A DNA stretch of 64,000 nucleotides from Escherichia coli (GTDB lineage: Bacteria > Pseudomonadota > Gammaproteobacteria > Enterobacterales > Enterobacteriaceae). The position numbers and the translations under genes were made by a program. This document shows, one piece after another, positions 6,178 through 6,225 of the stretch. Location of the stretch: assembly GCF_003334335.1 (NCBI RefSeq), contig NZ_QOWQ01000016.1, one strand, 5' to 3'. Each line of letters opens with the position of its first letter. Position 1 is the stretch's first letter. The notes under the pieces are model-generated. The model saw nothing but the letters and a program-made list of their open reading frames with translations, did no database searches and was not told the origin of the DNA.

Positions 6178-6225
6178 GTTTCAATATGGAACATTCATTA
6201 AAGCATATGTTTCACTATGAAACAT
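6178..6225. promoter_or_regulatory. Two adjacent inverted repeats in the dhaR-dhaK divergent intergenic region (candidate DhaR operators)
   Basis: GTTTCA-ATA-TGGAAC (6178-6192) and ATGTTTCA-cta-TGAAACAT (6207-6225); related half-sites 30 bp apart between divergent genes. Confidence 0.35.

What the first reader, a model, noticed from the sequence alone, without database searches (positions are those of the whole stretch)
6178..6225. Paired inverted repeats in the dhaR-dhaK divergent promoter region
GTTTCA-ATA-TGGAAC and ATGTTTCA-CTA-TGAAACAT are similar dyads about 30 bp apart between the divergently transcribed dhaR and dhaKLM, so they are candidate DhaR operator sites. I am not certain of their correspondence to published footprints.
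Basis: inference. Interest (0 to 1): 0.25.

Follow-up and report, generated by a model that had tools for sequence, protein, structure and literature searches.

The report
DhaR operator dyads upstream of dhaK
The two short palindromes between the E. coli dhaR and dhaK genes are real, strongly conserved across enteric bacteria, and almost certainly the docking sites of the regulator DhaR that switches on the dihydroxyacetone kinase operon, which is an ordinary feature of a well-studied promoter.

Summary
GTTTCAATATGGAAC (6178-6192) and (T)ATGTTTCACTATGAAACAT(A) (6206-6226) lie in the 227-bp spacer between dhaR (4194-6113, -) and dhaK (6341-7411, +). Their centres are 31 bp apart, and they are the only matches to the motif in the 64-kb window. 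Chance is excluded.

In 80 DhaR loci from Enterobacterales, every dha promoter I could see carries a pair of GTTYC-N5-GRAAC dyads 31-32 bp apart. There are 107 exact sites in 27 kb upstream of dhaK, against 1 in 278 kb elsewhere. The promoter-proximal dyad always lies 44-45 bp from a -10-like hexamer (CACAAT in E. coli), although the leader length varies.

Genomes with dhaD carry a second, mirror-image pair facing dhaD. In Serratia, where dhaR lies at the far end of the operon, the pair stays with the operon promoter and not with dhaR.

The two half-sites vary independently of each other, which points to protein recognition and not to a hairpin. The DhaR recognition helix is invariant.

The best explanation is tandem DhaR operators that activate the sigma70 dhaK promoter from about -56 and -87. 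The distal one overlaps the dhaR promoter, which would give autorepression.

The primary paper (Bächler 2005) could not be read, so agreement with published sites is unverified. Interest is low.

The parts
6178..6192 (.). Distal dyad (dyad 1), GTTTCAATATGGAAC, centre 6185. Candidate DhaR dimer site at about -87 of the dhaK promoter and about -39 of the candidate dhaR promoter.
   Evidence: Sequence. It is an exact match to the GTTYC-N5-GRAAC core, which is conserved in all Escherichia, Citrobacter, Klebsiella and other loci examined. In cryptic Escherichia clades it is replaced by GTTCCGTTATGGAAC, which still fits the motif although the flanks have diverged.
6206..6226 (.). Proximal dyad (dyad 2), TATGTTTCA-CTA-TGAAACATA. 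The core GTTTCACTATGAAAC is at 6209-6223, centre 6216. Candidate DhaR dimer site at about -56 of the dhaK promoter.
   Evidence: 9-bp perfect arms. The site is conserved, and its centre lies at a fixed 44-45 bp from a -10-like hexamer in 40 of 40 loci.
6236..6246 (+). Conserved T-rich block AATTTTCTTTT. It occupies the -35 position of the candidate dhaK promoter (ATTTTC at 6237-6242) and has no resemblance to TTGACA.
   Evidence: It falls in the same alignment columns in nearly all genera when sequences are anchored on the proximal dyad, and it is invariant in alignment A2. Its function is inferred, not shown.
6260..6265 (+). Candidate -10 hexamer of the DhaR-dependent sigma70 dhaK promoter (CACAAT). 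The start site is inferred near 6272.
   Evidence: A NANAAT hexamer (CACAAT, CAGAAT, GAGAAT or AAGAAT) lies at +44/+45 from the proximal dyad centre in 40 of 40 loci. Its distance to the dhaK ATG varies from 59 to 117 bp. The generic promoter scan found nothing here, as expected for an activator-dependent promoter. No start-site data could be read.
6147..6158 (-). Candidate dhaR -10 (TAAAAT, 6158..6153 on the - strand) followed by the conserved TGCGAG. The hexamer starts 27 bp from the distal dyad centre, so the dyad overlaps the -35 region of the dhaR promoter.
   Evidence: The block nAAAAT+GCGAG is conserved at +27/+28 from the distal dyad in all loci where dhaR is directly divergent from dhaK. 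Assigning it as a promoter is inference.
4194..6113 (-). dhaR, the regulator. Domains: GAF-PAS sensing domain, an AAA+ domain without GAFTGA, and a C-terminal Fis-type helix-turn-helix.
   Evidence: RefSeq annotation of identical DNA and translation. Pfam domains are from hits to homologues. The sequence has no GAFTGA, and the recognition helix IGRTTLWRK is invariant across orthologues.
6341..7411 (+). dhaK, first gene of the regulated dhaKLM operon.
   Evidence: RefSeq annotation and translation.

Best explanation
The two dyads are tandem operator sites for DhaR, the GAF-PAS/AAA+/Fis-type helix-turn-helix regulator encoded next door.

**Binding.** Each 15-bp core (GTTYC-N5-GRAAC, consensus GTTYCATWATGRAAC) would bind one DhaR dimer through its C-terminal helix-turn-helix. 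The centres are 31 bp apart, about three helical turns, so both dimers sit on the same face of the DNA and can join into a higher oligomer through the AAA+ domains.

**Activation of dhaK.** The proximal site is locked 44 bp upstream of a -10-like hexamer (CACAAT, 6260-6265). The -35 position there is a conserved T-tract and not TTGACA. The sites therefore sit at about -56 and -87 of an activator-dependent sigma70 promoter for dhaKLM.

**Repression of dhaR.** On the other strand the distal site overlaps the -35 region of the candidate dhaR promoter (-10 TAAAAT, 6158..6153). This would explain autorepression by occlusion.

**Signal input.** This comes from the literature and was not tested here. 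DhaK bound to the sensing domain keeps DhaR inactive. DhaL::ADP, formed when dihydroxyacetone is present, displaces DhaK and activates DhaR.

**Shown here:** the sites, their conservation, their spacing, and their fixed geometry relative to the hexamers.

**Inferred:** that DhaR is the protein bound, the transcription start points, and the occlusion mechanism.
For: 1. **Location.** The dyads lie between divergent dhaR and dhaK, in DNA 100% identical to K-12.
2. **Enrichment.** There are 107 exact GTTYC-N5-GRAAC sites in 27.4 kb upstream of dhaK in 39 loci, against 1 in 278 kb of the rest of those loci.
3. **Spacing.** Within pairs the spacing is 31 bp (42 times), 32 bp (12 times) or 30 bp (once).
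4. **Fixed promoter geometry.** A NANAAT hexamer lies at +44/+45 from the proximal centre in 40 of 40 loci, while the leader length varies from 59 to 117 bp.
5. **A repeated module.** In genomes with dhaD, a second pair with the same +44 geometry (TACAGT or TAGAGT) faces dhaD-dhaR. The same sites also precede the unrelated ATP-dependent dhaK of the C. freundii group.
6. **The motif follows the regulated promoter, not dhaR.** In Serratia marcescens MSU97 dhaR is convergent at the 3' end of dhaD-dhaKLM. The pair (1588-1602 and 1620-1634 of L082) lies upstream of dhaD, and there is none upstream of dhaR.
7. **Independent half-sites.** The Y and R positions of the two half-sites are complementary in 56 of 132 sites, against about 66 expected if they were independent. 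That is the pattern of protein half-sites and not of base pairing.
8. **The protein.** The DhaR recognition helix IGRTTLWRK is invariant from E. coli to Serratia. GAFTGA is absent, consistent with a sigma70 promoter (PMC10084136). No sigma54 -24/-12 element is present.
9. **Literature.** Held papers state that DhaR activates dhaKLM and is controlled by DhaK and DhaL (PMC6643234; PMC5890353; PMC12821955).
Against: - No binding data could be consulted. Bächler et al. 2005 is not held, so identifying DhaR as the bound protein rests on genomic linkage and on the literature's statement that DhaR controls this promoter.
- The transcription starts are inferred from hexamer conservation only.
- A centre at about -56 is not a classical class I or class II activator position.
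- The candidate dhaR promoter has no good -35 at a normal spacing. TTGAAA inside the dyad is 20 bp from TAAAAT.
- Other proteins have been reported at this spacer: YgfI/DhfA and YneJ/PtrR by ChIP-exo (PMC9068703) and NtrC by genomic SELEX (PMC8743547).
- All comparison loci were retrieved through DhaR, so there is no negative control of dha promoters in related genomes that lack dhaR.
Confidence: 0.9

Rival explanations
1. The dyads are bound by a different transcription factor (for example YgfI/DhfA, YneJ/PtrR, NtrC, GlpR, Cra or CRP), and DhaR binds elsewhere.
For: ChIP-exo peaks of the LysR-type factors YgfI and YneJ, and a genomic-SELEX peak of NtrC, have been reported in the dhaK/dhaR spacer. 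The half-site TGAAAC also occurs in the Cra consensus, and GlpR operators contain TGTTCG-like half-sites (both from my own knowledge, not tested).
Against: - The predicted YgfI site at dhaK is GATGCACAATGGATTC, which is window 6256-6271. That is 30 bp downstream of the dyads and has an unrelated sequence.
- The best matches in the spacer to the NtrC, CRP, Cra, TyrR and sigma54 consensus sequences all have 3 or more mismatches, and none coincides with the dyads in register.
- The motif co-occurs with dhaR in every locus, and no other regulator gene is shared by these loci.
- The spacer leaves no other conserved dyad that DhaR could use.
Confidence: 0.05
2. The palindromes act as nucleic-acid structures and not as protein sites: a cruciform in DNA, or a hairpin in a dhaR leader transcript.
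For: Dyad 2 folds as a 9-bp hairpin (DNA, -6.5 kcal/mol, z = -4.8).
Against: - Dyad 1 barely folds (-1.1 kcal/mol, z = -0.55).
- The sequence of the arms is conserved, not merely their complementarity. The variable Y/R positions show no compensatory covariation.
- The dyads keep a fixed distance to -10-like hexamers on the non-transcribed side of both promoters.
- No Rfam family matches.
Confidence: 0.02
3. These are chance palindromes in an AT-rich spacer with no function.
For: The spacer is 40% G+C, and 6-bp-arm palindromes are common in shuffles (3,507 of 20,000).
Against: Arms of 8 bp or more occurred in 1.5% of shuffles, and a similar pair 28-34 bp apart in 0.045%. The motif is roughly 1000-fold enriched at dha promoters across more than 15 genera.
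Confidence: 0.01

Closest known systems
DhaR-controlled dhaKLM promoter/operator of E. coli K-12 (Bächler, Schneider, Bähler, Lustig and Erni, EMBO J 2005; RegulonDB/EcoCyc DhaR entries)
   Same: This is the same locus, and the spacer is 100% identical to K-12. The literature readable here says DhaR activates dhaKLM from a sigma70 promoter, lacks the sigma54-interaction motif, and is controlled by DhaK and DhaL. From memory only: the 2005 paper reports autorepression of dhaR and DhaR binding to operator DNA from this spacer.
   Different: I could not read the paper or the databases, so I cannot say whether the published sites are exactly these two dyads.
Tandem upstream activator sites of NtrC-type bacterial enhancer-binding proteins
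   Same: The regulator has the same AAA+ plus Fis-type helix-turn-helix architecture. The sites are dyads of two 5-6 bp half-sites separated by 5 bp (NtrC: TGCACC-N5-GGTGCA, from my own knowledge). They come in pairs about three helical turns apart, which favours oligomer assembly.
   Different: There is no sigma54 -24/-12 element, and DhaR has no GAFTGA. The sites sit close to the promoter, at about -56 and -87 of a sigma70-type -10, and not 100 bp or more upstream with looping. The half-site sequence is different.
TyrR boxes (TGTAAA-N6-TTTACA) of TyrR, the other sigma70-dependent member of this regulator group in E. coli
   Same: E. coli family tables place DhaR in the TyrR group. Both act at sigma70 promoters through palindromic boxes, can both activate and repress, and use pairs of boxes.
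   Different: The sequence and spacing differ. The best TyrR-box match in the spacer has 4 mismatches out of 12. The dyad here has a 5-bp gap between 5-bp cores, against 6 bp between 6-bp arms for TyrR.

Membership tests
DhaR operator site (DhaR regulon, Enterobacterales) | Lies upstream of a gene known to be DhaR-controlled (dhaKLM), in the dhaR-dhaK spacer | tested here: met
   DhaR control of dhaKLM is stated in PMC6643234 and PMC5890353.
DhaR operator site (DhaR regulon, Enterobacterales) | Conserved at orthologous promoters wherever dhaR is present (phylogenetic footprint) | tested here: met
   A pair is present in 40 of 40 sequences with a PTS-type divergent dhaK (39 fetched loci plus the window), in 12 of 12 C. 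freundii-type loci, and in the one Serratia operon promoter examined. Enrichment is 107 sites in 27 kb against 1 in 278 kb.
DhaR operator site (DhaR regulon, Enterobacterales) | The motif follows the regulated promoter and not the regulator gene when the two are separated | tested here: met
   In Serratia L082 the pair is at the dhaD-dhaKLM promoter. No site lies within 3.5 kb upstream of dhaR in the 29 loci L053-L081 (Serratia, Yersinia, Hafnia, Acerihabitans and one unclassified Enterobacterales MAG).
DhaR operator site (DhaR regulon, Enterobacterales) | Direct binding of DhaR protein (EMSA or footprint), and loss of regulation on mutation | not testable with these tools
   The primary paper PMC545809 is not held, and no held paper quotes the sites.
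DhaR operator site (DhaR regulon, Enterobacterales) | Absent from dha promoters of related genomes that lack dhaR | not tested
sigma54 enhancer (upstream activator site of a classical enhancer-binding protein) | A downstream -24/-12 (TGGCAC-N5-TTGCW) promoter | tested here: not met
   The best match in 6100-6345 has 3 of 11 mismatches and lies inside dyad 1. There is none downstream of the dyads.
sigma54 enhancer (upstream activator site of a classical enhancer-binding protein) | The cognate activator carries the GAFTGA sigma54-contact loop | tested here: not met
   DhaR has ...EEFIGGDRTDNENGRLSRLELAHGGTLFL... at that place. PMC10084136 states the motif is lacking.
TyrR box | Match to TGTAAA-N6-TTTACA | tested here: not met
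   The best match has 4 of 12 mismatches and is not in register with the dyads.
Structured RNA or regulatory hairpin | Compensatory covariation that keeps pairing, or a match to a described RNA family | tested here: not met
   There is no excess of complementary Y/R combinations (56 of 132 observed, about 66 expected). No Rfam hit at E<=1.

The most novel reading that the evidence does not exclude
The comparative data define a rigid, reusable promoter module that may not have been described:
- two DhaR dyads 31-32 bp apart;
- a T-tract in place of a -35 element;
- a -10 exactly 44 bp from the proximal dyad centre.

The module is used once in E. coli and twice, back to back, where dhaD is present. 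If real, it gives a concrete geometry for the open question of how an AAA+ enhancer-binding-type protein without GAFTGA activates sigma70 RNA polymerase.

It also suggests that losing dhaD in Escherichia changed dhaR from a member of a DhaR-activated dhaD-dhaR operon (positive feedback) into a gene whose promoter is overlapped by the distal dyad (negative feedback).
Probability: 0.25. Interest if true: 0.4.

Novelty: already known. Interest (0 to 1): 0.15.

Why it matters
For E. coli this adds little. DhaR control of dhaKLM is textbook, and the operator was almost certainly mapped in 2005.

The modest value lies in three points:
- a clean, cross-genus definition of the DhaR motif (GTTYCATWATGRAAC, in pairs 31-32 bp apart), which can be used to annotate DhaR regulons, including the dhaD and dhaT/dhaB promoters of the 1,3-propanediol producers Klebsiella and Citrobacter;
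- the fixed geometry relative to the -10, which is a ready-made design rule for dihydroxyacetone-responsive biosensors and for mechanistic work on sigma70 activation by an AAA+ regulator;
- the apparent switch in autoregulation between genomes with and without dhaD.

Tried and rejected
**Literature**
- Bächler et al. 2005 could not be fetched by PMC id or DOI.
- Shi et al. 2014 and Deutscher 2014 are not held either.
- Full-text searches for the dyad sequences themselves and for 'DhaR binding' or 'PdhaK' found no paper that quotes the sites.
- Conway 2014 has no held supplements from which to take a start site.

**Generic promoter scan**
- It found no sigma70 promoter or terminator in 6000-6450. 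I take this as a weak, activator-dependent promoter and not as absence.

**Other consensus sequences**
- sigma54, TyrR, CRP, Cra and NtrC all give poor matches.

**RNA or structure readings**
- No Rfam hit.
- No covariation.
- The dhaK leader does not fold better than shuffles (z = +1.09).

**Variation within E. coli**
- It is uninformative: 5,360 of 5,386 records are at least 99% identical over the spacer.

**YgfI/DhfA as the dyad-binding protein**
- Rejected, because its predicted site is at 6256-6271.

**The first protein search**
- It returned mostly truncated DhaR fragments. They were trimmed by hand to the sensing domain so that AAA+ paralogues would not be pulled in.

Full report
**What is in the window**

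The window is Escherichia coli. Bases 5700-6700 are 100% identical to many complete genomes. RefSeq annotates dhaR and dhaK there, followed by dhaL, dhaM and treA.
- dhaR runs 4194-6113 on the - strand. It is 639 aa and starts MSGAF.
- dhaK runs 6341-7411 on the + strand.
- The spacer between them is 6114-6340, 227 bp at 40% G+C. It is 100% identical to K-12 and at least 99% identical in 5,360 of 5,386 E. coli records.

**The observation**

- Dyad 1 is GTTTCA-ATA-TGGAAC (6178-6192), with one arm mismatch.
- Dyad 2 is ATGTTTCA-CTA-TGAAACAT (6207-6225). It is perfect and extends to 9-bp arms at 6206-6226.
- The centres, 6185 and 6216, are 31 bp apart.

They are the only matches to the motif in 64 kb. 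In 20,000 dinucleotide-preserving shuffles of the spacer, a perfect arm of 8 bp or more occurred in 296. A pair of mutually similar dyads 28-34 bp apart occurred in 9.

**Comparative test**

I aligned the DhaR sensing domain (GAF-PAS, residues 1-331) with homologues trimmed to that domain. That alignment was used to fetch 80 loci from one genome per species. They fall into four arrangements:
- (a) dhaR directly divergent from dhaK: Escherichia, C. amalonaticus and C. sedlakii, Kosakonia, Phytobacter, and one Rahnella.
- (b) dhaKLM divergent from a dhaD-dhaR operon: Klebsiella, Raoultella, Pantoea, Pluralibacter, Mangrovibacter and others.
- (c) As (b), but with the unrelated 552-aa ATP-dependent dhaK: the C. 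freundii group.
- (d) dhaR not next to a dha promoter.
  - In Serratia dhaR is convergent at the 3' end of dhaD-dhaKLM.
  - Yersinia and Hafnia have no dha genes within the fetched DNA.

In every sequence of types (a) to (c), a pair of dyads lies 110-200 bp upstream of dhaK. The core is GTTYC-N5-GRAAC.
- Exact matches number 107 in 27.4 kb of dhaK-upstream DNA, against 1 in the remaining 278 kb of the same 39 loci.
- Spacing within pairs is 31 bp (42 times), 32 bp (12 times) or 30 bp (once).
- The symmetrised matrix from 132 distinct sites gives GTTYC-A-T-W-A-T-GRAAC with A/T-rich flanks.
- Both E. coli dyads fit this consensus.
- The extra outer bases that make dyad 2 a 19-bp palindrome are only weakly conserved.

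**Geometry**

When sequences are anchored on the proximal dyad, two further blocks fall into the same columns in almost all genera.
- The first is a T-rich block (AATTTTCTTTT, 6236-6246).
- The second is a hexamer NANAAT. In E. coli it is CACAAT at 6260-6265. Elsewhere it is CAGAAT, GAGAAT or AAGAAT.
- The hexamer starts 44 bp (33 sequences) or 45 bp (7 sequences) from the dyad centre, in 40 of 40 sequences.
- By contrast, its distance to the dhaK ATG ranges from 59 to 117 bp.

I read the hexamer as the -10 of the DhaR-dependent promoter. The T-tract then occupies the -35 position (ATTTTC with a 17-bp spacer), which fits an activator-dependent sigma70 promoter. The generic scan found no consensus promoter. 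With a start near 6272, the dyad centres are at about -56 and -87. These positions are inferred, because I could read no start-site data.

In types (b) and (c), a second pair of dyads lies 220-223 bp further on. It faces dhaD with the same layout: a T-tract, then TACAGT or TAGAGT at +44. The module is therefore used twice, back to back, in those genomes.

In type (a) there is no second pair. Instead a conserved block nAAAAT+GCGAG lies 27-28 bp from the distal dyad on the dhaR side. In E. coli this is TAAAAT at 6158..6153 on the - strand. If this is the dhaR -10, the distal dyad is centred near -39 and covers the -35 region. That would account for the autorepression of dhaR reported by Bächler et al. 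2005. I recall that report from memory and could not re-read it.

**Which protein binds**

- dhaR is the only regulator gene common to all these loci, and the flanking genes differ between them.
- In Serratia marcescens MSU97 I fetched the far end of the operon. The pair GTTTCATATTGAAAC and GTTCCATTATGGAAC, 32 bp apart, lies upstream of dhaD.
- None of the 29 loci L053-L081 (Serratia, Yersinia, Hafnia, Acerihabitans and one unclassified Enterobacterales MAG) has a site within 3.5 kb upstream of dhaR.
- The motif therefore belongs to the regulated promoter, as expected for a factor acting in trans.
- The DhaR helix-turn-helix recognition helix (IGRTTLWRK) is invariant from E. coli to Serratia, which matches an invariant motif.
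- DhaR has no GAFTGA loop (PMC10084136), and the spacer has no -24/-12 element. Both fit the reported sigma70 dependence.

**Rivals**

*A structural role.* A hairpin or cruciform is unlikely.
- The arm sequence itself is conserved.
- The variable fourth base of each half-site changes independently in the two arms. Complementary combinations number 56 of 132, against about 66 expected.
- Dyad 1 hardly folds, and Rfam has no match.

*Other factors.*
- The spacer has no acceptable match to the CRP, Cra, NtrC or TyrR consensus sequences.
- ChIP-exo peaks of the LysR-type factors YgfI/DhfA and YneJ/PtrR, and a genomic-SELEX peak of NtrC, have been reported at this spacer.
- The predicted YgfI site is GATGCACAATGGATTC at 6256-6271. 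It does not overlap the dyads, although it does overlap my candidate -10.

**Comparison with what is known**

The held literature gives the regulatory logic. DhaR activates dhaKLM. DhaK holds DhaR inactive, and DhaL::ADP activates it.

The held literature does not give the site coordinates. The primary paper is not held, and no held text contains the site sequences. My recollection is that the 2005 paper and RegulonDB/EcoCyc describe DhaR binding to inverted repeats in this spacer. That recollection is a lead and not a result.

In mechanism, the sites resemble the tandem upstream activator sites of NtrC-type regulators: a dyad with a 5-bp gap, in pairs three helical turns apart. They fail the defining tests of a sigma54 enhancer, having no -24/-12 element and no GAFTGA. 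They are not TyrR boxes either.

**Verdict**

This is a transcription-factor operator in a characterised E. coli promoter, so novelty is 'already known' and interest is low.

The parts that may go beyond the literature are:
- the cross-genus motif;
- the rigid layout of dyad pair, T-tract and -10;
- the duplication of that layout at dhaD;
- the implied change of dhaR autoregulation in Escherichia.

These are worth a note and do not amount to a discovery claim.

Noticed in passing
window 6272-6304: The block ATCGGCAGTCAGTGGTCGCCGTGTCGTTGAACA at the start of the inferred dhaK leader is nearly invariant across Escherichia, C. amalonaticus and C. sedlakii. Other genera have a different sequence at the same place. 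It does not fold better than shuffles (z = +1.09), and its role is unknown. A short CCCTAC motif about 25 nt before the ATG also recurs across genera.
   Followed up: partly
L008-L052 (for example L015 2084 and 2116; L019 2125 and 2157): Genomes with dhaD between dhaK and dhaR carry a second dyad pair, 32 bp apart. It faces dhaD with the same T-tract and a TACAGT or TAGAGT hexamer at +44. This implies DhaR activates a dhaD-dhaR operon there, giving positive autoregulation.
   Followed up: yes
L011-L013, L016, L018, L019, L024, L026, L027, L032, L033: In the Citrobacter freundii group, the same dyad pair and the CAGAAT hexamer at +44 precede a 552-aa ATP-dependent dhaK, which is only about 40% identical to the N-terminal part of E. 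coli DhaK. The operator module is therefore shared by two different kinase types.
   Followed up: partly
L082 1588-1634 (Serratia marcescens MSU97): The operon is dhaD-dhaK-dhaL-dhaM with dhaR convergent at its 3' end. The dyad pair is upstream of dhaD, the hexamer CATAGT is at +45, and no T-tract is present.
   Followed up: yes
L015 7272-7286 (Klebsiella oxytoca): A single exact dyad, GTTTCATTATGGAAC, lies in the non-coding stretch beyond dhaT and the small GlcG-like gene. It is the only exact site outside the dhaK/dhaD regions in 278 kb. It may be the DhaR site for the dhaT/dhaB genes, which the literature says DhaR controls in Klebsiella.
   Followed up: partly
window 6256-6271: The site predicted in PMC9068703 for the LysR-type factor YgfI/DhfA (GATGCACAATGGATTC) overlaps the candidate -10 CACAAT of dhaK. 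The same paper reports a YneJ/PtrR ChIP-exo peak at dhaK, and PMC8743547 reports an NtrC genomic-SELEX peak in this spacer. That several unrelated factors are reported at one short spacer may reflect real co-regulation or a sticky region.
   Followed up: partly
L060, L064, L066, L067, L069, L070, L072, L073, L076, L078, L079: The Yersinia and Hafnia DhaR homologues (53-55% identical in the sensing domain) have no dha genes and no dyads in the fetched 7-8 kb. In Y. frederiksenii the gene follows a sucrose-hydrolase/LacI-type cluster. Their targets are unknown.
   Followed up: no
L006, L007, L031 (Citrobacter amalonaticus group): The dyads are degenerate here, with one or both carrying a mismatch in the invariant core (for example GTTCCGTTATGAATC and GTTCACTTTTGAAAC). 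The T-tract and CACAAT are intact.
   Followed up: no
window 6311-6340 and 6114-6122: The mechanical ORF list starts dhaK 30 nt earlier (366 aa) and dhaR 9 nt earlier (642 aa) than RefSeq, which gives 356 and 639 aa. The spacer length quoted here uses the RefSeq starts.
   Followed up: yes
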